Below are positions 983-60,165 of a stretch of DNA of 60,829 bases, piece by piece. Location of the stretch: the NCBI GenBank assembly GCA_001783065.1, contig MFQN01000011.1, positions 1-60,829 on the forward strand, read 5' to 3'. A program made the position numbers and the translations under genes. The notes beneath the pieces are model-generated. The model made no database searches. It saw only the letters and a program-made list of their open reading frames with translations, and was not told the DNA's origin. This DNA is from Candidatus Magasanikbacteria bacterium RIFCSPLOWO2_12_FULL_43_12 (GTDB lineage Bacteria > Patescibacteriota > Patescibacteriia > Magasanikbacterales > UBA922). Position 1 is the first letter of the stretch, and each line of letters starts with the position of its first letter.

Positions 983-3157
983 TCAAAGATCATCGACATC
1001 CCGCAAAAAACTCCCGGGCTTAAATTGCCGTTTTGGTTTTTCTTCGTCAATATAAATAATTTCTTCCAGCTCGTTGTCATTAAACACCGCGCCGCGCAGA
1101 TCCGCGTCAACCAAATTTTTATTGATTTCATTGACAAACAAACTTGGTCCGCCGATTGAACCGCCGAAACTTCCAGACATTAAATAACTGATTTGCAGAT
1201 GTTTTTTCGCGCGCGTTACCGCCACGTAAAATAATCGCCGCTCTTCTTCTATTCCATTATCCTCGCGCGCCGCGCGATCATTCGGAAATTGACCATTGGA
1301 AACATTAATAATAAATACTGCCTGCCACTCCAAACCTTTGGCTTGATGAATGGTGGAAAGAACTATCTTGGACTTCAGACTTCTGTCTTCAGTCTTCGGT
1401 TGTCCGTCTGGGGCTGAAGTCTGAAGTCTGAAGTCTGAAGTCTGAAACCCCTCTTGCAAACTTGACTCGGCTAAGAATTGATCTAAATCCTCGGCTTGAT
1501 CCGCGAATTTCGCCAACTGTTCCAAATCCTGCAGCCGCTCCCGATAATCAGGATATTCATTTTCTAAATATTCGGCGTATTTACTTTCCATAATAATCCG
1601 AATCTTACCACCAACGCCAACATCAACCGTGTTTTGCAGAGGCTGAAAAACCTGCAAAAAATCATTCCACCCGACACTGGCTCTCGCCGGTAAATATTCA
1701 ATCATCCGTCCTATGTCATACGTCCTAAGTCTCTCTAAAATCACTTCAATCGTCGCCTCTCCAATCCCCACCTGCATATTTAAAACTCTCTGCCACGCGA
1801 CCGTATCTGTGGAATTATTTAATATCCGCAAATAGGCCAAAACATCTTTGACATGCGCGCGTTCAAAAAACCGCACGCCGCCGCGATAATCATAAGCGAT
1901 GCCGTGTTTTATCAGTTCCATTTCCAGCGCTTGCGAATGATGCGCGGCGCGGAATAAAACCGCGATATCTTTCGGCTCCACCCTCTCGCCAAACAACTCC
2001 TCTACCCGGCTGACGATGGCAACAGCTTCCTCGTCATTGGTATCAAACGAGTGGACTTCCGGCCGAACAAATTTTTCCCGCACGCTCTTCAATTCTTTTT
2101 GGTATTGGTTGATGTTGTTGGAAATTATGTTATTCGCCAAATTCAAAATCTCCGGCGTGGAGCGATAATTGGTTTCCAGACGAAAAATCTTCGCGTCAGG
2201 ATATTCTTTTTCAAAATCCAAAATATTTTTAACCTCCGCCGCGCGGAAACTGTAAATGCTCTGCGCGTCGTCGCCGACAACCAGCAAATTGCGATGTTTG
2301 GCGGCGATCAAACGGATAATTGACGCTTGAATTTTGTTAGTATCCTGATATTCATCAACTAAAATATATTGAAACTGCTCTTGGTATTTTTGCCGAATCT
2401 TTTCCGATTGTTGCAGCAATTTTAACCAATTAACCAACAAATCATCAAAATCCATTACATTCGCGGCTAATTTTCTTTTTTCATAATTCACCGCGATGCT
2501 TTTAATGCTGTCGGCTAACGGCAAAAAATGCTGGTACTTTAGATTCAAAACATCTTCTGTTGTCGTCTCGGAATTCCGCGCGTAGCTGACGATTGACTGC
2601 AAAACCGCCGGCGATGGAAAACGCCGCTGTGTCCGATCCACGCCTTCGTCTTTCAAGCATTGTTTAATTAAATTTGAACTATCATCGCTGTCCAAAACAG
2701 AAAAATTATTTTTATACCCCAAAAACGAACAATACTTTTTTAACACCCGATAGGCAATATGATGAAATGTCCCGGACCACGGCAAAACGGCGAGTTGGCG
2801 AACCACCTCTCTGCCCCGCCACGCCGTGGCATCTCCCCTTGTTAAGGGGAGAGGTTCGATACCCCCCGCCTTAACAAGGAGGGGTGCCCCGATTCGCATC
2901 GGGGCGGGGAGGGGGTTCACAAGCGTGGCCACCCTCTCAATCATCTCTCTCGCCGCTTTATTCGTAAAAGTTACCAACAAAATATTTTCCGGATTAATGC
3001 CTTGCTCCAGCAAATACGCCACGCGGTAAGTGATCGTCCGCGTCTTACCTGACCCAGCGCCAGCCAAAACCAAACACGGCCCGTCGGCATTCCGTACCGC
3101 GTTTAACTGTTCTTGATTTAATTCAGCTTCGTAATTTGGCATAAATAACACTTTCAA
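983..3157 (-). CDS. UvrD/PcrA/Rep-family ATP-dependent DNA helicase; carries two in-frame repeat-derived insertions
   Basis: 724 aa. Walker A AGAGSGKTRTITYRVAYLL; motifs TFTNKAAREM, GTFHH, VDEYQDTN, QAKGLEW and VAVTRAK. Extra segments VNPLPAPMRIGAPLLVKAGGIEPLPLTRGDATAWRGREVV (2812..2930) and QTSDFRLQTSAPDGQPKTEDRSLKSK (1370..1447) map to repeat elements. Confidence 0.85.
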   Translation of the reverse strand: MKVLFMPNYEAELNQEQLNAVRNADGPCLVLAGAGSGKTRTITYRVAYLLEQGINPENILLVTFTNKAAREMIERVATLVNPLPAPMRIGAPLLVKAGGIEPLPLTRGDATAWRGREVVRQLAVLPWSGTFHHIAYRVLKKYCSFLGYKNNFSVLDSDDSSNLIKQCLKDEGVDRTQRRFPSPAVLQSIVSYARNSETTTEDVLNLKYQHFLPLADSIKSIAVNYEKRKLAANVMDFDDLLVNWLKLLQQSEKIRQKYQEQFQYILVDEYQDTNKIQASIIRLIAAKHRNLLVVGDDAQSIYSFRAAEVKNILDFEKEYPDAKIFRLETNYRSTPEILNLANNIISNNINQYQKELKSVREKFVRPEVHSFDTNDEEAVAIVSRVEELFGERVEPKDIAVLFRAAHHSQALEMELIKHGIAYDYRGGVRFFERAHVKDVLAYLRILNNSTDTVAWQRVLNMQVGIGEATIEVILERLRTYDIGRMIEYLPARASVGWNDFLQVFQPLQNTVDVGVGGKIRIIMESKYAEYLENEYPDYRERLQDLEQLAKFADQAEDLDQFLAESSLQEGFQTSDFRLQTSAPDGQPKTEDRSLKSKIVLSTIHQAKGLEWQAVFIINVSNGQFPNDRAAREDNGIEEERRLFYVAVTRAKKHLQISYLMSGSFGGSIGGPSLFVNEINKNLVDADLRGAVFNDNELEEIIYIDEEKPKRQFKPGSFLRDVDDL
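1370..1447. repeat. Family-F heptamer tandem repeats (GAAGTCT)n with an inverted partner, in frame within the helicase gene
   Basis: ggacttcagacttctgtcttcagtcttcgg ... ctgaagtctgaagtctgaagtctgaagtctgaaa. Confidence 0.7.
2812..2930. repeat. Family-B GC-rich multi-hairpin element inserted in frame in the helicase gene
   Basis: Hairpins ctcccc-ttgttaa-ggggag and ccccgat-tcgc-atcgggg. Shares ggggtg(c/t)cccgattcgcatcggg with 44335..44458. Confidence 0.6.
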
Positions 3158-3833: not shown

Positions 3834-3888
3834 CCACGCCGTGGATTGCTTCGCCTGCGAAGGCTCGCAATGACAGAGCTGTCATTCC
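3833..3888. mobile_element. Family-A MITE-like palindromic element, partial copy (right end plus a truncated left-end fragment)
   Basis: gtggattgcttcgcctgcgaaggctcgcaatgacag, then agctgtcattcc. Confidence 0.6.
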
Positions 3889-4685: not shown

Positions 4686-6038
<1,353 letters not shown>

Positions 6039-8021: not shown

Positions 8022-9125
8022 CTACTTGATTAGCATCGCGTCCCCGAAACTATAAAACCGATATTTCTCCTCCACTGCTTTCTGATAAGATTCTAACATA
8101 AACTGTGTGTCGCAAGCAAATGAACTAACTAACATCAAAAGCGTTGACTTCGGCAAGTGAAAATTCGTAATCATCGCGTCAACCACCTTGAATTCAAAGC
8201 CTGGTTTGATAAAGATGTTGATGTCGCCTTTATACGCTCTAACTAAAAATGTATAGCTATTTCCATTTATCTCTACATTATCTCTATCTATTTTATTATT
8301 TAATCCAGCCACTCCCTCAAGTGTTCTCACCGTCGTGGTCCCAATAGCAATAACTCTTCTCCCTTCTTCCTTCGCCAAATTAATCTTCTCCGCGTTTTCT
8401 TCGTCCAGCTCCACCCATTCGCTGTGCATAGTATGATCTTCCACGCGTTCGGATTTAACCGGTAAAAAAGTACCGAGCCCGACATGCAAAGTTATTTCCG
8501 CGAACTCAACGCCTTTGTCCCGCAACTTTTGAATCAACTCCGGCGTAAAATGAAACCCGGCTGTCGGCGCCGCGACCGAACCCTCGTATTTGGCATAAAC
8601 GGTCTGGTAACTCTCTAACTCGTGCGGCTCGTCTTTAATATACGGCGGCACCGGAATGTGGCCGTATTTATTCGCCTTTTCTCTCACTTGCTCTTCTGAA
8701 TCAACAAACTGAACCAAAATCTCACCTGTCGGTTCTTTCACTACCACATCGCAATAAAAATCCGGCGCGAATCTAACTCTCATCCCAGGTTCAACATGTT
8801 TCCCCGGCTTCGCCAATACTTTCCACACTCCCTCGTTTTCCATCGGCCTGATTAAAAATATTTCAATCAATTTTTTGTGTTCAAATAATTCTTGATCGTC
8901 AATCGTGGTTAATTTCCCAAACAATCTGGCCTTAAAAACTTTAGAATTATTCCAAACAATCAAATCGCCTTTTTTAAAAAAATCAATAATATCATAAAAA
9001 TGGCGATGTTCAATCGTTTGGGTTTTTCTATCAACAACCATCAGCCGCGAAGAATCGCGCGGATTTGTTGGTGTTTGCGCGATTAATTCGGAAGGTAAAT
9101 TGTAATCAAAATCTTTGGCTAACAT
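8022..9125 (-). CDS. queA: S-adenosylmethionine:tRNA ribosyltransferase-isomerase
   Basis: 367 aa. N-terminus MLAKDFDYNLPSELIAQTPTNPRDSSRLMVV is typical of QueA, with homology along its length. Confidence 0.9.
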   Translation of the reverse strand: MLAKDFDYNLPSELIAQTPTNPRDSSRLMVVDRKTQTIEHRHFYDIIDFFKKGDLIVWNNSKVFKARLFGKLTTIDDQELFEHKKLIEIFLIRPMENEGVWKVLAKPGKHVEPGMRVRFAPDFYCDVVVKEPTGEILVQFVDSEEQVREKANKYGHIPVPPYIKDEPHELESYQTVYAKYEGSVAAPTAGFHFTPELIQKLRDKGVEFAEITLHVGLGTFLPVKSERVEDHTMHSEWVELDEENAEKINLAKEEGRRVIAIGTTTVRTLEGVAGLNNKIDRDNVEINGNSYTFLVRAYKGDINIFIKPGFEFKVVDAMITNFHLPKSTLLMLVSSFACDTQFMLESYQKAVEEKYRFYSFGDAMLIK

Positions 9126-9128
9126 AAA

Positions 9129-9167
9129 TGCTTACGAGGCTTACGAGGCTGACAAGGCTTACAAAGC
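9129..9167. repeat. Family-E 9-mer tandem array (GGCTTACRA)n directly upstream of the queA start
   Basis: gcttacgag gcttacgag gctgacaag gcttacaaa. Confidence 0.7.
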
Positions 9168-9244
9168 TATTGAACCGATTTAATAAGTTTAAATGTAAGA
9201 TTTAATAGCGTTGTATACAGTTTCACAACTGTTAAACGGCTAAT

Positions 9245-9367
9245 CTGTCATTGCGAGGAGCTCGCGCGATCCCTCACATTCACTCGAGACAGGCTCCGCA
9301 ATCCAGCAATCGCATTAGAACGCGATAACGGTGTGGATTGCTTCGCCTGCGAAGGCTCGCAATGACT
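9245..9367. mobile_element. Family-A MITE-like element, full copy
   Basis: Terminal inverted repeats ctgtcattgcgaggagc ... gctcgcaatgac. Internal gtggattgcttcgcctgcgaaggctc. Confidence 0.7.
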
Positions 9368-9466
9368 TTCAAAAGTGTAAACAACGCTGGCTATTCCTAC
9401 AACTAATTTCACAAACTCTAACGCTTTTTTCCAAACCAACAAATTATGATAATCCTGCATATCGTA

Positions 9467-9510
9467 TTGTCAGCCTTGTAAGCCTAGTAAGCATTGTCAG
9501 CCTAGTACAC
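9467..9510. repeat. Family-E array in inverse orientation (TGTCAGCCTTGTAAGCC...)
   Basis: Forms a long inverted repeat with 9129..9167 around the MITE at 9245..9367. Confidence 0.6.
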
Positions 9511-10590
9511 CTCCACTCTGTTCGCATTATGTTCATCTAGAATTTTCGCGTATTTAACTTCACCCTCCGGGGTGGTCAAAAAGTACCAATAATCATTCTT
9601 TTCCGGATATAACGCGGCTTTGATTGATTCCAAAGACGGATTGCTGATCGGACTTGGCGGCAGGCCCGGATATTTGTAAGTATTCCACGGCGAGTTGCTG
9701 TCGCGATCTTCTTTGGTGGTGAAAACATCTCCGCTTTTATTTACCGCGTAATGCACAGTTGAATCCGCCTGCAATGCCCAGTTTTTATTATACCTCCTCC
9801 ACAAAATATCCGCGGCCAAACGCTTATCTTTTTCCGACTTTACTTCACGCTCCAAAATACTGGCCATAATTAAAATATCATAAAAACTCTTTCCTTGTTT
9901 CCCCATTTCCTGCCGCATCTCATCGGTAATTTCTTGCTCGCGCTGTTGAATTAATTTTAAGACAATATCTTCAAGCTTCGCGTTTTTATAAATCCGATAA
10001 GTTTCCGGCGCCAAATATCCTTCGTAACTCACATACCACGGCTTATCTTCCAAAATTTCCAGATCTGTCCTGAGCGACCCGTCCCGAGATGGACCGAGGG
10101 AAGCCGAAGGATCTGAACTCAACTTTGGCGCGCCTTCTTTCCAATTTTTATAACTCACCGCCGGCAAACCGACCAGCTCGGTCAATTCTTCGGCCTGAAA
10201 CATGCCGTTAAATTCAAAATACTGCGCGATATCGCGGATAGTCCACCCGGGAATAATCGTAATTTCTCTTTCATTCAACCCTGGTCGGGACAAAACATCG
10301 GCCACTCGCGCCAAAGTGATCGGCGCGGCTAATTCAAACTCGCCAAAGTTTATTTTTTTATCAAGTCCTTGCCAAACCAAATATTTTTTAAACAGCCACG
10401 CGCTTCTAATAACTTGTTCAATTTCTAATCGTTCGGCCAGCTCTGTCACGTTCTCGCCGGCTTTAACTTCAAATACAACTTTGCCTGCCCCCACCTGCGC
10501 CTCGGTGGTGTAAATTTCGGAATACAAAAACCAGGCTATGAAGAGTAAACATAGTAGAGTGACAATTAAGAAGATTTTTTTTATGGACAC
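9502..10590 (-). CDS. mltG: Endolytic murein transglycosylase MltG (YceG-like); carries an in-frame 42-nt repeat insertion
   Basis: 362 aa. N-terminal transmembrane helix; motifs IIPGWTIRDIAQ, EDIVLKLIQQ, WNTYKYPGLPPSPISNPSL and YWYFLTT. The repeat at 10067..10110 encodes DPSASLGPSRDGSLRTD. Confidence 0.8.
   Translation of the reverse strand: MSIKKIFLIVTLLCLLFIAWFLYSEIYTTEAQVGAGKVVFEVKAGENVTELAERLEIEQVIRSAWLFKKYLVWQGLDKKINFGEFELAAPITLARVADVLSRPGLNEREITIIPGWTIRDIAQYFEFNGMFQAEELTELVGLPAVSYKNWKEGAPKLSSDPSASLGPSRDGSLRTDLEILEDKPWYVSYEGYLAPETYRIYKNAKLEDIVLKLIQQREQEITDEMRQEMGKQGKSFYDILIMASILEREVKSEKDKRLAADILWRRYNKNWALQADSTVHYAVNKSGDVFTTKEDRDSNSPWNTYKYPGLPPSPISNPSLESIKAALYPEKNDYWYFLTTPEGEVKYAKILDEHNANRVEVY
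10067..10110. repeat. Family-C 42-nt GC-rich element, copy in mltG
   Basis: gtcctgagcgacccgtcccgagatggaccgagggaagccgaagg. 40 of 42 nt identical to the reverse complement of 27016..27058. Confidence 0.7.
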
Positions 10591-15353: not shown

Positions 15354-15402
15354 AGATTAACCACTCCATTTTATCACCCTATTGACATATTATCCACAGG
15401 TA

Positions 15403-15431
15403 TTGACTTTTTTTTGAAATGTGTTATATTA
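15403..15431 (+). promoter_or_regulatory. Sigma70-like promoter (TTGACT, 16-18 nt spacer, TATATT/TATTAT) driving a short unit
   Basis: Seen directly. It is followed by a 10-bp perfect inverted repeat at 15440..15464 and a terminator at 15481..15515. Confidence 0.4.
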
Positions 15432-15437
15432 TATCTG

Positions 15438-15512
15438 TCTATTGGTCTGCCATAGACCAATAGGGTTTTACATCCAAGAACCACCTTCCTCGCGGAGGGT
15501 GGTTTGCATTTT
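15438..15512 (+). ncRNA. Candidate small RNA of about 75 nt with two hairpins (promoter-to-terminator unit)
   Basis: Hairpin 1: ctattggtct-gccat-agaccaatag. Hairpin 2: accaccttcctc-gcg-gagggtggt, followed by ttgcatttt. No ORF. Confidence 0.3.
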
Positions 15513-15698
15513 AGAATTCCTTACGGTGTTGCAATTGCCTTCCCCAAACATCTTCTTTTATCGTCAACACATCAAAAAATCTGCCTTTGGCTTTCTGCGC
15601 CTGCCACAAATTTGAGGCGTCAATAAAAACATATACAACACTCCGTTTTTCTTCTTTAAAAAGATTCATAAGATGAAAACCGCGAAAAACAAATACTA

Positions 15699-15731
15699 AA
15701 TAAACATAAAAAGTTGTATCCATTATACAAC
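15699..15731. terminator. Bidirectional terminator-like hairpin
   Basis: gttgtat-ccatta-tacaac flanked by an A-tract and a T-tract. On the minus strand it lies just downstream of the 15764..16231 gene. Confidence 0.45.
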
Positions 15732-15763
15732 TTTTTTTATAGAAGTAAAATCCCCTGCCCATC

Positions 15764-16231
15764 TCAATCTCCTCCATTATAATAATGAAGGAGATATTTG
15801 ATGGGGATGAACGTCGCGGCTCCTTGTGTTACTGTCAGTACCAGCGCCCACCCTGTCGACACTCCGTTTTCCTTACTGCCAAGAAAGGCGAAGGCGAAGA
15901 CACAGATTGTGAGAGAAAGAATGAGTGGCGTGGTGAAAGGTTCTACTGCGGCAATAAAAGCGACTATAGCGACGCAGTAAGCGGAGAAAAGGCAGACGGC
16001 GAAAGCCTTGTCGAAAAACCGGTAGACAATGACTTCTACGCAGGTTTGGATGACAATGAAGGGGCCGAGAGTCAGCTTCATCTCCATGTTGAGTACTTTG
16101 CGACAAAAGAAAAACGACACCAGAATGGTCAGTGTGGCTATGCCTTGAGCCAACCACAGTTTGTGCAAGTCCGCTTTGGACCTTTTATCCGTAGTTTCCA
16201 TGGCGACCTCCAAAGATGCGAAATGCATCAA
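15764..16231 (-). CDS. Hypothetical polytopic membrane protein
   Basis: 155-aa ORF with four or five hydrophobic helices and a minus-strand terminator immediately downstream. The true start may be an internal Met. The competing plus-strand ORF 15785..16285 has no membrane or domain features. Confidence 0.35.
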   Translation of the reverse strand: MMHFASLEVAMETTDKRSKADLHKLWLAQGIATLTILVSFFFCRKVLNMEMKLTLGPFIVIQTCVEVIVYRFFDKAFAVCLFSAYCVAIVAFIAAVEPFTTPLILSLTICVFAFAFLGSKENGVSTGWALVLTVTQGAATFIPIKYLLHYYNGGD

Positions 16232-16361
16232 ACCGCCCGACAGAAAATTATTAAAAATAACTTGCTATCGGGTAGTTTTATCTAAATTATGCTAAAATTA
16301 TAACTATAAACAACAACCAATTATACCACATTTTGATAGTTTTGTCAATACTTGACAGTTT

Positions 16362-16390
16362 CTTGCTGATATTATATACTCAACCGTCGG
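16362..16390 (+). promoter_or_regulatory. Promoter of nrnA (TTGACA-N17-TATACT), overlapped by the palindrome TTGTCAATACTTGACAG
   Basis: Seen directly. The palindrome at 16352..16368 is operator-like. Confidence 0.45.
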
Positions 16391-16436
16391 TCTTACAAAA
16401 AATCCTACGCCCTACGTCTTACACCCTACACCCACT
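16391..16436. repeat. (YCYTACR)n heptamer-like tandem repeats ending at the nrnA ATG
   Basis: tcttaca aaaaatcctacg ccctacg tcttaca ccctaca cccact ATG. Confidence 0.6.
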
Positions 16437-20351: not shown

Positions 20352-20451
20352 ACGTCATTGCGAGGAGCTCGCGCTACGAAGCAATCTATACAATCACGAA
20401 AATGCAACGACGGTGTGGATTGCTTCGCCTGCGAAGGCTCGCAATGACAGA
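20352..20451. mobile_element. Family-A MITE-like element
   Basis: gtcattgcgaggagctcgcg...gtggattgcttcgcctgcgaaggctcgcaatgacag. Confidence 0.7.
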
Positions 20452-20553
20452 AGAATGCCGATTCGCAAGCGATAAACCATAAACAACGCTTAAAATTATT
20501 ACAGTTTAACCTTTGATTTTTTATTAGAAATTAAGTGAATTAGAAATTTTTAA

Positions 20554-25822: not shown

Positions 25823-26104
25823 TCACTTAAATAAATTTCCATGGCTCCCCATCGCCACCAATTCTAGCACCACAATATCTCCATAGATTTTATAAAACAA
25901 CAACCAATCCGGCGCGATATGGCACTCCCAACAATTTTTCAAATCACCGGTAAGTTTATGGTTATGATATTTGTCAGGCAACACTGCGCCTTTTGCCAAC
26001 AAACTAACGACTGCCGACAACTCATTAACAATTCTCTTTCGACCAGAACAACGCAACTTTTTATACTGACGCTTAAATTGATTTGAATATCGCAATTCAT
26101 ACAT
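25823..26104 (-). CDS. yafQ: Type II toxin YafQ (RelE/ParE superfamily)
   Basis: 93 aa. F.RQYKKL..., LTGDLKNCWECHIAPDWLLFYKIYGDIVVLELVAMGSHGNLF matches the YafQ family pattern. Confidence 0.8.
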   Translation of the reverse strand: MYELRYSNQFKRQYKKLRCSGRKRIVNELSAVVSLLAKGAVLPDKYHNHKLTGDLKNCWECHIAPDWLLFYKIYGDIVVLELVAMGSHGNLFK

Positions 26105-26108
26105 AAAA

Positions 26109-26396
26109 CTAATCCTTCATTATTTCCGCGAACATTTTTTTGGCTGACTTGCGCGCTTTTCGTTTGCCGGAATTATAAAGCGCCATTGTTTCCGCCGACT
26201 CTTTTAGCAACATCCTCTCCTCTTCTTTGGTAAAACCATTTTCCGTGACTAACGGAAATGGAATTCCTTTGTATCTCAGCACCTGCTGAAAATAAATTTT
26301 CACGCCGGTGCTCAAATCCAAACCAAGTGACTGAAAAATACCGGCTACTGCCTGTTTAGTTTTTTTATCTACTCTAAGCTGGACTGTGTTACTCAT
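26109..26396 (-). CDS. dinJ: Type II antitoxin DinJ/RelB family
   Basis: 95 aa. VQLRVDKKTKQAVAGIFQSLGLDLSTGVKIYFQQV is a ribbon-helix-helix DinJ-like N-terminus. It lies 4 nt upstream of yafQ. Confidence 0.8.
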   Translation of the reverse strand: MSNTVQLRVDKKTKQAVAGIFQSLGLDLSTGVKIYFQQVLRYKGIPFPLVTENGFTKEEERMLLKESAETMALYNSGKRKARKSAKKMFAEIMKD

Positions 26397-26536: not shown

Positions 26537-27166
26537 TCACTTCCCCAACCTCCTCAACGCCTCTTTTACTAATTTCCCCGCATCTTTCCCATCCACTGAC
26601 AAACCTTTAACCGCTTCGCGGGCTTCTTCGCGACTGTAACCCAAAGAAACCAGCCCGTCAATCACCTCACCCAACACTTCACTATCGCCATCGCCAAACT
26701 TTATGGACTTTACGGACTTTGTGACTTTTGACTTCAACTCAACAACCACTCGTTCCGCCGTCTTTTTGCCAATGCCGCTGACTTTCGTGAGATAACCAAC
26801 ATCGCCGCGCCCAATCGCCGCGCTGATTTCTTCCAAACTGCCTAATTCCAAAATATGCATGGCGCTTTTTGGCCCAATGCCGCTGACGGTTAACAACAAC
26901 TCAAAAAAACTTTTTTCTTCCAAAGTTTCAAAGCCAAACAAATCCAGCGCGTTCTCCCCCACCCGCAAATAAGTATATAAACTGATACTATCTCCGACTT
27001 GCAAACTTGAACACCCTTCGGCTTCCCTCGGTCCGTCTCGGGACGGGTCGCTCATGGCAGGCTTGCGCACTTTCACACATACCTTATATCCCACCCCTCC
27101 GCTCGTCAATACCAAAACTGACCGCTCGCTTTTTTCTATAATTTTGCCTTTAAGATACGAAATCAT
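26537..27166 (-). CDS. ruvA: Holliday junction branch migration complex subunit RuvA; carries an in-frame 42-nt repeat insertion
   Basis: 209 aa. MISYLKGKI, helix-hairpin-helix LLTVSGIGPKSAMHIL and VSGIGKKTAERVVVELK. The repeat at 27016..27058 encodes MSDPSRDGPREAEG. Confidence 0.85.
   Translation of the reverse strand: MISYLKGKIIEKSERSVLVLTSGGVGYKVCVKVRKPAMSDPSRDGPREAEGCSSLQVGDSISLYTYLRVGENALDLFGFETLEEKSFFELLLTVSGIGPKSAMHILELGSLEEISAAIGRGDVGYLTKVSGIGKKTAERVVVELKSKVTKSVKSIKFGDGDSEVLGEVIDGLVSLGYSREEAREAVKGLSVDGKDAGKLVKEALRRLGK
27016..27058. repeat. Family-C 42-nt GC-rich element, copy in ruvA (opposite orientation relative to the coding strand)
   Basis: ccttcggcttccctcggtccgtctcgggacgggtcgctcatgg. 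Confidence 0.7.
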
Positions 27167-30354: not shown

Positions 30355-30474
30355 CTGTCATTGCGAGGAGCGAGGAACGAGCGACGCGGCAATCCATCGC
30401 CAATTTTTTTCTGAGCTAAGCGCGACTGGATTGCTTCGTCGGCCGACGAACGTCGGCCTCCTCGCAATGACAGA
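30355..30474. mobile_element. Family-A MITE-like element
   Basis: ctgtcattgcgaggagcgaggaacgagcgacgcggcaatcca...cctcctcgcaatgacaga. Confidence 0.7.
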
Positions 30475-33188: not shown

Positions 33189-33209
33189 AAAATTTTAGTT
33201 AATTTTTAT

Positions 33210-33348
33210 CTGTCATTGCGAGGAGCTCGCGCGATCCCTCGCATTCACTCGGGACAGGCTCCGCAATCCATCGCCAATTTTTTTCTGAGCTAAGCGCGAC
33301 TGGATTGCTTCGTCGGCCGACGAACATCGGCCTCCTCGCAATGACAGA
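33210..33348. mobile_element. Family-A MITE-like element (longest copy)
   Basis: A composite of modules seen at 9245 and 30355, with perfect terminal inverted repeats ctgtcattgcgaggag / ctcctcgcaatgacag. Confidence 0.7.
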
Positions 33349-50644: not shown

Positions 50645-50729
50645 AAAAACTATTTTGAAATATATAATACTTACTTGTAAGAACCCCGAGTGTTGTTTGT
50701 GATTTTACCAGCTGCAAAGTGGTGCTCTT

Positions 50730-50829
50730 CTGTCATTGCGAGCCTTCGCAGGCGAAGCAATCCACGCTCGTCGACCATTGGCGACTGGATTGCTTCGTCG
50801 TCGCGCGAGCTCCTCCTCGCAATGACAGA
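50730..50829. mobile_element. Family-A MITE-like element (palindromic variant with about 35-bp terminal inverted repeats)
   Basis: tgtcattgcgagccttcgcaggcgaagcaatccac ... gactggattgcttcg...ctcctcctcgcaatgacaga. Confidence 0.7.
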
Positions 50830-52657: not shown

Positions 52658-56176
<3,519 letters not shown>

Positions 56177-56441: not shown

Positions 56442-56633
56442 ATGAACCCCATCACCAAGCTCAAAAACTATTTCAAAGAATCAGTCGCGGAAATGAAAAA
56501 AGTTGTCTGGCCGACGAAAAAACAGACCACGACATATACTTTAATCGTCATCGGCTTGAGTCTCGGCGTTGCCATCTTTTTCGGCATCTTGGATTACGCT
56601 TTCAATCTCGGACTGGAAAAAATTATTAAATAG
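56442..56633 (+). CDS. secE: Preprotein translocase subunit SecE
   Basis: 63 aa with a single C-terminal transmembrane helix. KKVVWPTKKQTT is typical of SecE. It lies directly upstream of nusG. Confidence 0.8.
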   Translation: MNPITKLKNYFKESVAEMKKVVWPTKKQTTTYTLIVIGLSLGVAIFFGILDYAFNLGLEKIIK

Positions 56634-56697
56634 ACTTCGGCTTTCGGACTTCAGACTTCCGACAAGTTGCCGACAATCACAGCTGAAGTCTGAAAGC
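56633..56697. repeat. Family-F inverted repeat pair in the secE-nusG spacer (potential long hairpin)
   Basis: gacttcggctttcggacttcagacttccgac ... gctgaagtctgaaagctg. Confidence 0.6.
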
Positions 56698-56710: not shown

Positions 56711-57256
56711 ATGGCTAAACAAAACCTCCAATTAGGACGCCGCTGGTATGTGCTCCACACCTATAGCGGCTATGAAGAAAACGTCAAACGCAATTTGGAA
56801 CAAAGAATTGAATCTTTTGACATGCGCGACAAAATTTTTGGCGTATTGGTGCCGAAGGAAAAAAAGATTAAAATCAAAAACGGCAAACGCAATGTGATTG
56901 AAGAAAAAGTCTTCCCGGGTTATGTTTTGGTGGAAATGATTGTTACCGATGATTCGTGGTATGTGGTCAGAAACACTCCGAATGTTACCGGCTTCATCGG
57001 TTCCGGCACCACGCCAACCCCGATTGATCAAAAAGAAATAGAAGTTTTACAAAAAAGAATGGGAGTGGATGAACCTACCCACCAGATTGATGTGTCGCTC
57101 AACGAACCGGTGCGCATTATTGACGGCCCGTTCAAAAATTTTGAAGGCAAAATTTCCAATGTTGATGAAGAGCGCGGCAAAGTCAAAGTGCTGGTCAATA
57201 TGTTTGGTCGCGAAACGCCGGTGGAGTTGGACGCGTTGCAAGTGAAGAAAATATAA
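56711..57256 (+). CDS. nusG: Transcription termination/antitermination protein NusG
   Basis: 181 aa. RWYVLHTYSGYEENV (NGN domain). KOW motif in the C-terminal region. Confidence 0.9.
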   Translation: MAKQNLQLGRRWYVLHTYSGYEENVKRNLEQRIESFDMRDKIFGVLVPKEKKIKIKNGKRNVIEEKVFPGYVLVEMIVTDDSWYVVRNTPNVTGFIGSGTTPTPIDQKEIEVLQKRMGVDEPTHQIDVSLNEPVRIIDGPFKNFEGKISNVDEERGKVKVLVNMFGRETPVELDALQVKKI

Positions 57257-57258
57257 AC

Positions 57259-57288
57259 GGACTTCAGCGATCAGACTTCAGACTTCGG
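57259..57288. repeat. Family-F repeats just after nusG
   Basis: ggacttcagcgatcagacttcagacttcgg. Confidence 0.6.
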
Positions 57289-57291
57289 CTT

Positions 57292-57549: not shown

Positions 57550-57590
57550 CACTTTCGGGCAGAAGTCAGAAGACCGAAGTCTGAAGTCCA
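57550..57590. repeat. Family-F repeats directly upstream of the rplK ATG
   Basis: cgggcagaagtcagaagaccgaagtctgaagtcc. Confidence 0.6.
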
Positions 57591-57596
57591 ATCACT

Positions 57597-58022
57597 ATGG
57601 TCAAAAAATTAATCACCCAAATCAAACTGCAAATTGCCGGCGGAGCGGCTAATCCGGCGCCACCGGTCGGACCGGCTTTGGGCCAGCATGGCGTGAATAT
57701 CCAGGGTTTTTGCAAAGAATTCAATGATAAAACCCAAGACCGCAAAGGAGAAACTGTGCCGGTGATTATTAATGTTTATGAAGACCGCTCTTTCAGCTTC
57801 ATAACCAAAGTTGCTCCGGCCAGCGAACTAATTAAAAAAGCGATCGGTTTGGAAAAAGGAGCGGCTAATCCGCTGAAAGATAAGGTTGGCAAAATCACCA
57901 AAGCCCAACTCATGAAAATCGCGGAAGTGAAAATGAAAGACATGAACACGGAAAATCTTGATTCGGCCGTGCGTTCACTTGCTGGTACGGCCAGACAGAT
58001 GGGAGTGCTGGTGGAAGGGTGA
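57597..58022 (+). CDS. rplK: 50S ribosomal protein L11
   Basis: 141 aa. [26 protein letters not shown]. Confidence 0.95.
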
Positions 58023-59105: not shown

Positions 59106-59996
59106 TTGTTTAAAAATTACAAATTGAAAATTAAAAATTACCAAAGCATTGTGTTCTCTATGAACCAACAAATAAAATTAATCCTCTTACTTACCATTGT
59201 TTTGATAATCGTGGGCGCTGGTTGTTTTACCAAAACTCCAAAAACAACAACTGAAACAGCAACCACGACAGTTGAAATTATAAAAAAGAAACCAAAAATT
59301 GACACTTCGGCTAATCCGGCTCAAAACTATTGTGAAAAAACCGGCAATGAGTTGATTATTCGCTTTGATGAAACCGCTTCAAGCTCAATCGCCTACTGCC
59401 GTTTTGCCGACATGACCGAATGCGAGGTGGAAAAATATTTTAGACAAACCTGCGCGCCCGGACAAAGCGCCGAGCAATACAGCCCGCAAGAAAAAATGGA
59501 CAATTTTGCCACTTGCACCAACGAATACGAACCGGTTTGCGGCGCAAACGGCACAACTTACACCAATACCTGCCTGGCGCAAGTTCAAGGAATAATTATC
59601 ACCCATACCGGCGTCTGCGCTCCGGCAGAACAAAAGCAAACAGCGACTGAAAACAAAAATAGCGCGATAGTAAGTAACAGCGCCCAAACAAAAAAACCAA
59701 CGGCCGCTGTTAGCCAAAGCGCCAACGACCCTTCAGGATGGCTTGGGATAGTTAAAGATTTCGCGCTCTCCGCGCCAAAATCAAACCCGCCGGCATTTAT
59801 TGAAAAATGCGCTTATTCCGGCATTGATTCATACTATTTCTCGCCAGGCTGCGATGGATGCGTTACAACTTTATATGATAAGAACGGTAAAATAGTCTGC
59901 TACCCGAGCAATGATCTGGATAACACTTGTCCCGCGTATTTCACCGGCGCTTATCGCTCAAACTATTGCTCCAAGGTGTGGAAGGACGAAAGATAA
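59106..59996 (+). CDS. Secreted Cys-rich protein with a DUF333 (putative hemolysin-like) domain and a Kazal-type protease-inhibitor domain
   Basis: 296 aa. Signal/transmembrane segment. NPAQNYCEKTGNELIIRFDETASSSIAYCRF (DUF333 pattern). CTNEYEPVCGANGTTYTNTCLAQVQGIIITHTGVC (Kazal). C-terminal Cys-rich module. Confidence 0.55.
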   Translation: MFKNYKLKIKNYQSIVFSMNQQIKLILLLTIVLIIVGAGCFTKTPKTTTETATTTVEIIKKKPKIDTSANPAQNYCEKTGNELIIRFDETASSSIAYCRFADMTECEVEKYFRQTCAPGQSAEQYSPQEKMDNFATCTNEYEPVCGANGTTYTNTCLAQVQGIIITHTGVCAPAEQKQTATENKNSAIVSNSAQTKKPTAAVSQSANDPSGWLGIVKDFALSAPKSNPPAFIEKCAYSGIDSYYFSPGCDGCVTTLYDKNGKIVCYPSNDLDNTCPAYFTGAYRSNYCSKVWKDER

Positions 59997-60035
59997 GGCT
60001 TACGAGGCCGACAAGGCTTACAAAGCCCACAAGGT
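59996..60035. repeat. Family-E array, left arm flanking the rplA promoter
   Basis: aaggcttacg aggccgaca aggcttaca aagcccaca agg. Confidence 0.6.
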
Positions 60036-60067: not shown

Positions 60068-60124
60068 AAGGGTACTTTTAGTAACCGGTGGGACCTCTGC
60101 CATCCAGGGGGTTAGAACCACCAA

Positions 60125-60165
60125 TCTTACGAAGCCTTGTAAGCATTGCACGCCTCGTAAGCCTT
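60125..60165. repeat. Family-E array, right arm (inverse orientation), ending 8 nt before the rplA ATG
   Basis: tcttacgaagccttgtaagcattgcacgcctcgtaagcc. Confidence 0.6.

What the first reader, a model, noticed from the sequence alone, without database searches (positions are those of the whole stretch)
10067..10110. An identical 42-nt GC-rich element is inserted in frame in two unrelated housekeeping genes (mltG and ruvA), in opposite orientations
The 42-mer GAGCGACCCGTCCCGAGAYGGACCGAGGGAAGCCGAAGG occurs at 10067..10110 inside mltG and, reverse-complemented with 40 of 42 nt identical, at 27016..27058 inside ruvA. Both genes are read through it. In MltG it adds DPSASLGPSRDGSLRTD; in RuvA it adds MSDPSRDGPREAEG. 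The element is about 70 percent GC in an AT-rich genome and contains a small hairpin (ccgtc-ccga-gacgg). That near-identical DNA is in frame in both orientations argues that it is a mobile or repeat sequence and not protein-level convergence.
Basis: seen in the sequence. Interest (0 to 1): 0.8.

Follow-up and report, generated by a model that had tools for sequence, protein, structure and literature searches.

The report
Tiny hairpin repeat inserted inside genes
Two housekeeping genes of a groundwater Magasanikbacteria (CPR) bacterium each carry, in frame and in opposite orientations, the same 40-48-nt copy of a very short GC-rich hairpin repeat. Its 18-nt core turns out to be widespread in environmental viral contigs, so the case resembles the "selfish DNA inside genes" known from Rickettsia, on a much smaller scale.

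Summary
TGAGCGACCCGTCCCGAGAYGGACCGAGGGAAGCCGAAGG lies at 10071-10110 (+) in mltG and at 27015-27054 (-) in ruvA, 39/40 identical, with 0 matches in shuffles. Both genes read through it, and it is unchanged in 10 and 4 independent assemblies.

It is a composite. The outer 24 nt, CCTG-YCCT-GAGCGAAGYCGA-AGGR, is a short repeat. Sister species carry it at the same two sites, or lack it. They also carry it in queA, in a DUF3048 gene and in a hypothetical gene. It is always in frame and is read in four different frames. The inner 24 nt, CCCGTCCCGAGAYGGACCGAGGGA, was found only in this species, at both sites.

The 18-nt core occurs in more than 120 IMG/VR contigs, against 1 and 0 for composition-matched controls. 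Its closing base pair covaries, giving a 4-bp stem and a 12-nt loop built from the GCGAAGC and CCGAAGG mini-hairpin motifs. I found no Rfam family or paper describing it.

Best reading: a REP/RPE-like mini-repeat that survives only as stop-free, 3n-long insertions in disordered loops. The loop-expanded variant was then copied between the two loci, probably by gene conversion. The mobilising mechanism is unknown.

Verdict: new variant of a known kind, of moderate interest.

The parts
10063..10113 (+). The 48-nt in-frame insertion in mltG, with the 3-nt ATC repeat that makes its borders ambiguous (10063-10110 or 10066-10113). Element orientation is +, antisense to the gene. It encodes (D)PSASLGPSRDGSLRT(D), about MltG residues 159-175.
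   Evidence: The empty allele in the nearest relative is L035 (CTT GAT TCA|AGT TTG) and in L006. Protein alignment A2.
10068..10111 (+). Hairpin unit of the mltG copy: stem TCCT (10068-10071) pairing with AGGA (10108-10111), closing pair T:A, enclosing the expanded loop.
   Evidence: The closing pair covaries across the family: C:G in ruvA, DUF3048, queA and the hypothetical gene, T:A in all mltG copies. In 102 viral-contig copies the same pair is CG 49, UA 30, UG 6, GC 5, AU 2.
10078..10101 (+). Inner 24-nt segment CCCGTCCCGAGATGGACCGAGGGA. The junction is ambiguous by 2 nt (10076-10099 to 10078-10101). It sits inside the GCGA|AGC mini-hairpin motif of the short repeat and contains the 5-bp hairpin CCGTC/GATGG with one G:T pair.
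   Evidence: Codon-level comparison with the short alleles L002 and L005. This segment is unique to this species: searches returned only chance hits in high-GC DNA.
27014..27061 (-). The 48-nt in-frame insertion in ruvA. Element orientation is -, the same sense as the gene. It encodes PAMSDPSRDGPREAEG, RuvA residues 36-51.
   Evidence: Empty allele L007 (GTG TTA AAG|TGC) and short allele L001 (CCTGCCCTGAGCGAAGTCGAAGGG). The AlphaFold2 model has pLDDT below 50 for residues 35-51, between strand 26-30 and helix 52-54. T. thermophilus RuvA has a gap here.
27024..27047 (-). Inner 24-nt segment of the ruvA copy (reverse complement of CCCGTCCCGAGACGGACCGAGGGA), with a perfect 5-bp hairpin CCGTC/GACGG.
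9502..10590 (-). mltG (YceG family endolytic transglycosylase), host gene 1.
26537..27166 (-). ruvA (Holliday junction branch migration protein), host gene 2.

Best explanation
The sequence is a loop-expanded member of a family of very short GC-rich hairpin repeats. The basic unit is about 24 nt: CCTG + YCCT-GAGCGAAGYCGA-AGGR. That is a 4-bp stem closing a conserved 12-nt loop made of two overlapping mini-hairpin motifs, GCGAAGC and CCGAAGG.

In this Magasanikbacteria clade, copies of the unit have landed inside protein-coding genes. Only insertions that are a multiple of 3 long, free of stop codons (5 of 6 frames qualify) and located in structurally permissive loops persist. They are then translated as short disordered Pro/Ser/Gly/Arg/Asp-rich loops.

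An ancestor already carried the 24-nt unit in mltG and in ruvA. In the lineage of this species a further 24 nt arose inside the loop of one copy, probably by slippage or duplication at the mini-hairpin. It was then copied into the other copy by short-tract gene conversion or template switching between the two inverted repeats. The result is two 40-nt stretches that are 39/40 identical.

Shown:
- the repeat family exists;
- the insertions are in frame and read in multiple frames;
- presence varies between species;
- the element is composite;
- the inner part was found only in this species, within the collections I could search.

Inferred:
- the way the unit spreads;
- the origin of the inner 24 nt;
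- the conversion step;
- neutrality at the protein level.
For: Three allele states occur at both loci.
- ruvA: empty (L007), 24 nt (L001), 48 nt (window).
- mltG: empty (L006, L035), 24 nt (L002, L005), 48 nt (window).

The states do not travel together. GCA_016214105.1 has ruvA short and mltG empty. GCA_016207245.1 has the reverse.

Further 15-28-nt copies sit in queA (L002, L006), in a DUF3048 gene (L007) and in a hypothetical gene (L001). All are in frame, and all are empty in the window. That makes 9 copies at 5 loci against 0.1 expected from shuffles. They are read as PALSEVEG, PSASLRT, LRLAPLAQ and PFGSAQGR, which are four different frames.

An independent related insertion lies in the same RuvA loop, in the opposite orientation, in a more distant relative (L036).

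The outer ends of the window copies match their orthologues, not each other. The inner 24 nt has no match in 185,579 species genomes, in the metagenome collection or in IMG/VR.

Fourfold-degenerate sites differ by about 35% among the three species, yet the two long copies differ at 1 of 40 positions.

Loop length varies in other family members. The queA-L006 copy carries a GAGCG slippage expansion, and 36-nt loop-expanded variants occur in viral contigs.

The core 18-mer is more than 100-fold enriched in IMG/VR, and its closing pair covaries.

The RuvA insertion models as a disordered loop.
Against: - No mobilising enzyme was found. Twenty window ORFs have no transposase domain. There is only a weak 52-aa Y1_Tnp fragment in a relative.
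- There is no consistent target-site duplication. ATC/ATC flanks the window mltG copy only.
- Homology arms of 7 to 11 nt are very short for RecA-type gene conversion between sites 17 kb apart.
- Orthologous short copies differ by only 1-3 of 24 nt, far less than neutral sites. At that slow rate, 1 difference in 40 is not significant (P = 0.14), so recency is not proven. Some DNA-level constraint or continual homogenisation may be acting instead.
- The rest of this genome could not be reached, so the copy number and the state of other copies are unknown.
- In the MltG tree the filled alleles are not monophyletic. That requires several precise losses, recurrent insertion at the same site, or allele exchange.
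Confidence: 0.55

Rival explanations
1. The inner 24 nt is itself a tiny mobile unit. It inserted independently into both pre-existing short repeats because it targets the GCGAAGC mini-hairpin loop (site-specific nested insertion).
For: Both short copies in the window (2 of 2) carry it at the same position inside GCGA|AGC. None of the 7 copies in sister species does. The junction has a GA microhomology and imperfect GAGCGA/GAGGGA direct repeats. It contains its own 5-bp hairpin. Nested or merged GC clusters are described in yeast mitochondria (PMC8811140).
Against: No free-standing or third copy exists in the 60.8-kb window, even by Smith-Waterman search (best score 22 against a null of 21-30). 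There are no real hits in 596 Gb of genomes, in the metagenome collection or in IMG/VR. Only 7 protein clusters shared words with its six-frame peptides, and none scored. No enzyme candidate was found.
Confidence: 0.17
2. The 48-nt form is ancestral at both loci and is held constant by selection on a DNA or RNA-level function, such as a protein-binding or priming hairpin. The 24-nt forms in relatives would be recurrent deletions between the GAGCGA/GAGGGA direct repeats.
For: Family copies are more conserved than fourfold-degenerate sites and at least as conserved as the host genes, regardless of reading frame (8 differences in 96 nt against 35% neutral divergence). The core is conserved across contigs of 35-73% GC. 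Mini-hairpin motifs are reported at priming and origin sites (PMC13037366).
Against: The inner segment was seen in no other species, and the canonical family form everywhere else is short. This reading needs at least three identical independent deletions. A function would have to work in either orientation inside unrelated genes, yet be dispensable in sister species with empty sites.
Confidence: 0.1
3. The short GC-rich segments are not mobile elements. They are by-products of a repair or replication process that pastes in copies of abundant hairpin repeats at breaks or stalled forks (templated insertions). Selection then keeps only in-frame events.
For: There is no transposase and no consistent target-site duplication. 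The net size is usually 24 nt. The same genomes carry many related hairpin repeats in intergenic arrays and, in frame, in other genes such as tgt, the uvrD-like helicase, nusA and S1.
Against: This is hard to tell apart from non-autonomous transposition with the data available. It does not by itself explain the cross-taxon over-representation of the exact 18-mer.
Confidence: 0.13
4. Protein-level convergence or selection for a PSRDG-containing loop, an assembly chimera, or a recombination site for programmed inversion of the 17-kb segment.
For: Both proteins contain PSRDG. The two copies are inverted repeats 16.9 kb apart.
Against: PSRDG in both proteins follows automatically from the palindrome CCGTCYCGRGACGG being read in the equivalent frame on either strand. 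Nucleotide identity is 39/40 even though the reading strands are opposite. The sequence is identical in 14 independent assemblies, all in the same arrangement. An inversion would split both genes.
Confidence: 0.03

Closest known systems
Rickettsia palindromic elements (RPEs; Ogata et al. 2000, 2002, as summarised in PMC10969869)
   Same: Both are dispersed repeats found inside unrelated housekeeping genes. Both are in frame and translated as extra peptide segments at structurally tolerated sites, with presence or absence differing between close species. No autonomous partner is known for either.
   Different: RPEs are about 100-150 bp, clearly palindromic and confined to Rickettsia, and each family encodes one conserved peptide. 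Here the unit is 24 nt (48 nt in the window) with only a 4-bp stem. It is read in at least four frames. Its core is shared with very diverse environmental contigs.
Yeast mitochondrial GC clusters, including the optional in-frame clusters of var1 (PMC8811140)
   Same: Both are short GC-rich hairpin elements in a lower-GC genome and can sit in frame in a protein gene. Both spread or are lost by gene conversion and occur in both orientations. GC clusters are described as merging and shuffling into composite clusters, which parallels the nested structure here.
   Different: GC clusters are mitochondrial, 30-50 bp, with AG/TAG target duplications and AT-rich targets. Here there is no consistent duplication, the host is a bacterium, and there is no sequence relationship.
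REP/BIME elements and their RAYT (Y1) transposases (PMC2817692)
   Same: Both are 20-35-nt GC-rich imperfect hairpins, often in arrays. Some REP loops contain GCGAAGC-like sequence; the Coxiella REP GTAGGTTGGGCTGAGCTTGCGAAGCCCAAC resembles CCCTGAGCTTGCCGAAGGG in queA of L002. REPs leave no target duplication.
   Different: REPs are by definition extragenic, carry a GT[AG]G head, are species-specific and flank a rayt gene. Here there is no GTAG head, no RAYT in the window, the copies are intragenic, and the core is shared across very different GC contents.
Intragenic MITEs (ERIC, Correia, Nezha and others; PMC10969869) and mitochondrial 'byp' translational-bypass elements (mentioned in PMC8811140)
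   Same: Small non-autonomous insertions inside coding regions that leave the gene functional.
   Different: MITEs are at least 50 bp with terminal inverted repeats and target-site duplications derived from an insertion sequence. The byp elements are skipped by the ribosome, whereas this element is stop-free, a multiple of 3 long and presumably translated.
DNA mini-hairpin motifs GCGAAGC and CCGAAGG (PMC13037366)
   Same: The conserved loop GAGCGAAGCCGAAGG is exactly these two motifs sharing one C. The inner 24 nt interrupts the first motif.
   Different: Mini-hairpins are a structural motif reported at phage and plasmid priming sites, not a repeat family. No priming role has been tested here.

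Membership tests
Rickettsia palindromic elements (RPE) | Dispersed repeat inserted in frame in unrelated protein-coding genes | tested here: met
   mltG and ruvA in the window; queA, DUF3048 and a hypothetical gene in sister species.
Rickettsia palindromic elements (RPE) | Length of about 100-150 bp with an extended palindromic structure | tested here: not met
   The unit is 24 nt (48 nt in the window). It has only a 4-bp outer stem plus a 5-bp inner hairpin, and its folding energy equals that of shuffles.
Rickettsia palindromic elements (RPE) | Sequence belongs to one of the described RPE families of Rickettsia | not tested
   No RPE sequences were available to compare. The host is a CPR bacterium.
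MITE | Terminal inverted repeats and a flanking target-site duplication of fixed length | tested here: not met
   The only inverted ends are the 4-bp YCCT/AGGR. A 3-nt ATC repeat flanks the window mltG copy but not L002, L005, ruvA or the DUF3048 gene.
MITE | A related autonomous insertion sequence or transposase in the genome | tested here: inconclusive
   No transposase domain in 20 window ORFs.
REP / RAYT system | Short (20-40 nt) GC-rich imperfect palindrome present in many copies | tested here: inconclusive
   Size and GC content fit, and the stem covaries. Copy number in this genome is unknown: 2 copies in 60.8 kb.
REP / RAYT system | Conserved GT[AG]G head 5' of the palindrome | tested here: not met
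   The left flanks are CCTG, TTTA, CGTTCGC, AGCCTGY or ACTCAT, with no GTAG.
REP / RAYT system | Extragenic location | tested here: not met
   All 9 Magasanikbacteria copies are inside coding sequences. One marginal intergenic relative lies at L007 2304-2350.
REP / RAYT system | A cognate rayt (Y1 transposase) gene flanked by the repeats | tested here: inconclusive
   None in the window. A weak 52-aa Y1_Tnp fragment lies in the relative L006 at 4898-5056.
Yeast-type mobile GC clusters | GC-rich hairpin cluster, optional between strains, in frame in a protein gene | tested here: met
   This is an analogy only.
Yeast-type mobile GC clusters | AG/TAG terminal repeats and a mitochondrial host | tested here: not met
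   The host is a bacterial chromosome and there are no AG/TAG duplications.
Any Rfam RNA family | Match to a curated covariance model | tested here: not met
   No hit at gathering threshold in the window. There were no relevant hits at E up to 10 around either copy. Five viral contigs carrying the core motif also gave none.

The most novel reading that the evidence does not exclude
YCCT-GAGCGAAGYCGA-AGGR may be an undescribed, pan-environmental mobile or functional single-stranded-DNA hairpin: two stacked GNA mini-hairpins closed by a covarying stem. It would be shared by phages and many bacterial phyla, spread by an unknown mechanism, and able to colonise coding sequence in frame. On this reading the window catches it in the act of evolving, with a nested 24-nt expansion propagated between two copies in one species.
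Probability: 0.25. Interest if true: 0.75.

Novelty: new variant of a known kind. Interest (0 to 1): 0.55.

Why it matters
In-frame colonisation of essential genes by repeats is textbook only for Rickettsia, and in organelles for yeast GC clusters. This finding shows the same phenomenon in a CPR (Patescibacteria) lineage with a unit five times smaller.

These genomes appear to carry many such insertions. tgt, a UvrD-like helicase, queA, nusA and S1 all show lineage-specific GC-rich in-frame indels.

This matters in three ways.

- **Annotation and phylogenomics.** It affects annotation, protein-family alignment and phylogenomics of CPR genomes.
- **Protein evolution.** It offers a route by which new surface loops can arise.
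- **The core motif.** The 18-nt core is more than 100-fold enriched in environmental viral contigs, has a covarying stem, and has no Rfam family and no literature match in my searches. It may therefore mark an unrecognised widespread hairpin element whose function or mobilising enzyme could now be sought.

Tried and rejected
- **Further copies of the long form.** Window search with 3 mismatches, blastn-short and Smith-Waterman against shuffles found no third copy.
- **Public collections.** The inner core pattern in genome contigs, metagenome contigs and viral contigs gave only chance hits in DNA of 58-74% GC. The window's own genome is not in those collections, so they say nothing about its other contigs.
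- **Peptide search.** The six-frame peptides searched against 5.8 billion proteins gave 7 word-sharing candidates, none scoring (one search was a parameter error).
- **Cultured phages and plasmids.** Only weak or chance matches. The Trichlorobacter plasmid hit lies inside a transposase coding sequence and was uninformative.
- **Rfam.** Nothing.
- **Literature searches by sequence string.** Only unrelated primers.
- **A possible diverged relative at 44338-44374.** It shares CGACCC..GTCCCGA but did not exceed the shuffle null. I rejected it as a copy.
- **GC-richness as a criterion.** Rejected, because 211 comparable islands exist in the window.
- **Nearest-neighbour folding.** It shows no excess stability. 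The mini-hairpin review states that such models under-predict GCGAAGC stability, so this result is weak evidence either way.
- **The MltG AlphaFold2 model.** Too poor (mean pLDDT 62.5) to place the insertion beyond 'low-confidence linker'. No fold searches were run.

Full report
**1. Observation**

The 40-mer TGAGCGACCCGTCCCGAGAYGGACCGAGGGAAGCCGAAGG occurs exactly twice in the window, at 10071-10110 (+) and 27015-27054 (-). The only difference is T versus C at one position. No shuffle of the window gave a match. The pair extends to 46 nt at 93% identity.

Both host genes lie on the minus strand: mltG at 9502-10590 and ruvA at 26537-27166.

The shared PSRDG is a by-product of the palindrome CCGTCYCGRGACGG being read in the equivalent frame on both strands.

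The organism is a Candidatus Magasanikbacteria bacterium from the Rifle groundwater data sets; its RuvA is 100% identical to P0001.

The ruvA copy is identical in 10 independent assemblies and the mltG copy in 4. The element is therefore real and fixed, and the T/C difference is a fixed difference between the two loci.

- The window is 43.7% GC and the element 67.5%.
- 211 other 24-nt islands in the window reach 70% GC.
- The element does not fold better than shuffles under nearest-neighbour parameters.

**2. The element is composite**

Aligning RuvA and MltG with their closest homologues shows three states at each site. The DNA confirms it.

| Locus | Empty | Short (24 nt) | Long (48 nt) |
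|---|---|---|---|
| ruvA | L007: GTG TTA AAG\|TGC | L001: + CCTGCCCTGAGCGAAGTCGAAGGG | window: CCTGCCATGAGCGA[CCCGTCCCGAGACGGACCGAGG]GAAGCCGAAGGG |
| mltG | L006; nearest relative L035 | L002 and L005: reverse complement CCTGTCCTGAGCGAAGCCGAAGGA and a variant | window |

The outermost bases of each window copy match its orthologue rather than the other window copy. Only the central 40 nt are shared between the two loci.

The two reference relatives carry opposite combinations:
- GCA_016214105.1: ruvA short, mltG empty.
- GCA_016207245.1: ruvA empty, mltG short.

In an NJ tree of MltG the filled alleles are not monophyletic.

**3. A repeat family that sits in frame in many genes**

The short unit recurs in sister species in other genes:
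- a DUF3048 gene (L007, 1856-1879);
- queA, as a 15-nt net form in L002 and a 24-nt net form with a GAGCG slippage expansion in L006;
- a hypothetical gene (L001, 2683-2702).

All of these are in frame, and all are empty in the window. That gives 9 copies at 5 loci, against 0.1 expected in composition-preserving shuffles.

The copies are read in four different frames (PALSEVEG, PSASLRT, LRLAPLAQ, PFGSAQGR). Five of the six frames are stop-free for both the short and the long form.

A more distant RuvA (P0008, L036) has an independent, related insertion (…CCTTCGTCCCGAGCTCAGG…) in the same loop, in the opposite orientation.

The RuvA insertion (residues 36-51) falls in a gap relative to T. thermophilus RuvA. 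In the AlphaFold2 model it lies in a segment with pLDDT below 50, between strand 26-30 and helix 52-54. The MltG model is poor, but the insertion lies in its low-confidence linker.

A systematic comparison of window genes with their orthologues lists many further lineage-specific GC-rich in-frame indels, in tgt, a UvrD-like helicase, nusA, S1 and queA. Several of these are made of the same hairpin repeats that fill intergenic regions.

**4. The core is widespread**

Two composition-matched controls gave 1 and 0.

The contigs range from 35% to 73% GC. Some carry two or three copies, or tandem copies.

The bases flanking CCT…AGG pair in 92 of 102 distinct copies (CG 49, UA 30, UG 6, GC 5, AU 2). 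The covariation score is 0.25, against 0.15 in shuffles (0 of 500 reached the observed value) and at most 0.17 when the partner columns are slid.

The same pair covaries in Magasanikbacteria. It is C:G in ruvA, the DUF3048 gene, queA and the hypothetical gene, and T:A in all mltG copies.

The unit is therefore a 4-bp (sometimes longer) stem with a conserved 12-nt loop, GAGCGAAGYCGA. In the C variant that loop is GCGAAGC plus CCGAAGG sharing one C. Both are described as extraordinarily stable DNA mini-hairpins, found for example at priming sites (PMC13037366).

The window's inner 24 nt interrupts GCGA|AGC. Loop-expanded variants of 30-36 nt exist in other contigs.

In low-GC viral contigs most copies lie at ORF edges, but a few are deep inside long ORFs.

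I found no Rfam family and no paper containing the sequence. Cultured phages and plasmids give only weak hits.

**5. Origin of the long form**

The inner segment was not found in 185,579 species genomes, in the metagenome collection or in IMG/VR, apart from chance hits in high-GC DNA. There is no third copy in the window. The canonical family form is short everywhere else, so the long form is most simply derived in this species.

Fourfold-degenerate sites differ by about 35% among the three species. At that rate, 1 difference in 40 nt between two old paralogues has P = 7e-7.

However, orthologous short copies differ by only 8 of 96 nt. At that slower rate P = 0.14. Recency is therefore likely but not proven. 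The slow evolution of the repeat, independent of reading frame, is itself unexplained; it could reflect constraint or homogenisation.

I favour one origin of the 24-nt expansion. The long form reads like three tandem-like CCnGAGnGR motifs, and queA-L006 shows a slippage expansion in the same loop. Copying to the other locus by short-tract conversion or template switching would follow.

Independent targeted insertion, or an ancestral long form with recurrent deletions, remain possible.

**6. Mechanism of spread**

This is unknown. Twenty window ORFs show no transposase, and only a weak Y1_Tnp fragment lies in a relative. There is no consistent target-site duplication.

In behaviour the element is closest to RPEs (PMC10969869), to the yeast mitochondrial GC clusters of var1 (PMC8811140) and to REPs (PMC2817692). 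It fails defining features of each:
- RPE: length and palindromic structure;
- REP: the GTAG head, extragenic location and a RAYT gene;
- MITE: terminal inverted repeats and target-site duplications.

**7. Verdict**

- It is a new variant of a known kind of phenomenon (selfish or REP-like repeats tolerated in frame), not a new category.
- The most interesting open point is the identity of the widespread 18-nt hairpin core.

Noticed in passing
window 5705-5785 (inside tgt, 4728-6038 +): tgt carries an in-frame copy of a second repeat, CTGTCATTGCGAGGAGCGAGGGACGAGCGACGAAGCAATCC…. It adds about 13 residues ([13 protein letters not shown]) right after the conserved [13 protein letters not shown] motif, and the orthologue in L002 lacks it. 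The same family is intergenic at 3840-3877, 9247-9366, 20354-20476, 30357-30474, 33208-33348 and 50704-50766, and contains GCGAAGC.
   Followed up: partly
window 2769-2934 (inside the UvrD/PcrA-like helicase, 983-3157 -): A 166-nt GC-rich block of palindromic hairpins (…CCCCTTGTTAAGGGGAG…, …CCCCGATTCGCATCGGGG…) is read in frame. It adds about 45 residues that are absent from the L002 orthologue. The same hairpins occur in an intergenic array at 44338-44460.
   Followed up: partly
window 1365-1456, 55925-55970, 56627-56659, 57254-57289, 57557-57602; and 9118-9173, 9456-9509, 39358-39442, 52661-52714, 59986-60034, 60117-60170: Many intergenic regions contain short tandem arrays of 7-nt (GAAGTCT-like) or 9-nt (CTTACGAGG / CTTGTAAGC-like) units, often as inverted pairs flanking genes. 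Their function is unknown.
   Followed up: no
window 52718-56176 (+): gyrB is interrupted by an intein. The Pfam Intein_splicing domain spans residues 500-919, between the GyrB and Toprim domains.
   Followed up: no
L036 667-1266 (RuvA P0008): An independent insertion related to the family lies in the same RuvA loop, in the opposite orientation. It is bracketed by an exact 8-nt direct repeat, TGCAGAAT, 48 nt apart. This could be a target duplication or a local duplication.
   Followed up: partly
L002 11046-12296 (queA of GCA_016207245.1): This single queA gene carries four separate lineage-specific in-frame insertions: LRQAQ, ASSLRGDSVEPGQATN, APCEHPPCSPLR and SKLGYGVTQSAFAG. All are GC-rich (56-67%), which suggests heavy repeat colonisation of some genes.
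   Followed up: no
L006 4898-5056: A 52-aa ORF with a weak Y1_Tnp (IS200/RAYT-type) Pfam hit lies between the DHH and SMC genes of the sister genome. The syntenic window region (15354-16436) has ORFs with no Pfam hit.
   Followed up: partly
L007 2304-2350: An intergenic GC-rich hairpin, TCCCCCTCGTAGGCTTCGGCCATGAGCTCAGCCGAACGGGGGGA, lies just downstream of the DUF3048 gene. It contains a diverged copy of the core (nhmmer E = 0.15), so intergenic relatives of the family do exist in the clade.
   Followed up: partly
window 25823-26396 (-): A RelB/DinJ-YafQ toxin-antitoxin pair sits immediately downstream of ruvA. It is conserved there in GCA_016214105.1 but absent in GCA_016207245.1.
   Followed up: no
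Metagenome-contig collection versus look-up of encoding contigs: JGI contig Ga0209541_10006784 carries the ruvA element (L022), yet the metagenome contigs pattern scan did not return it. That collection is therefore incomplete for this organism, and negative scans there are weak evidence.
   Followed up: yes
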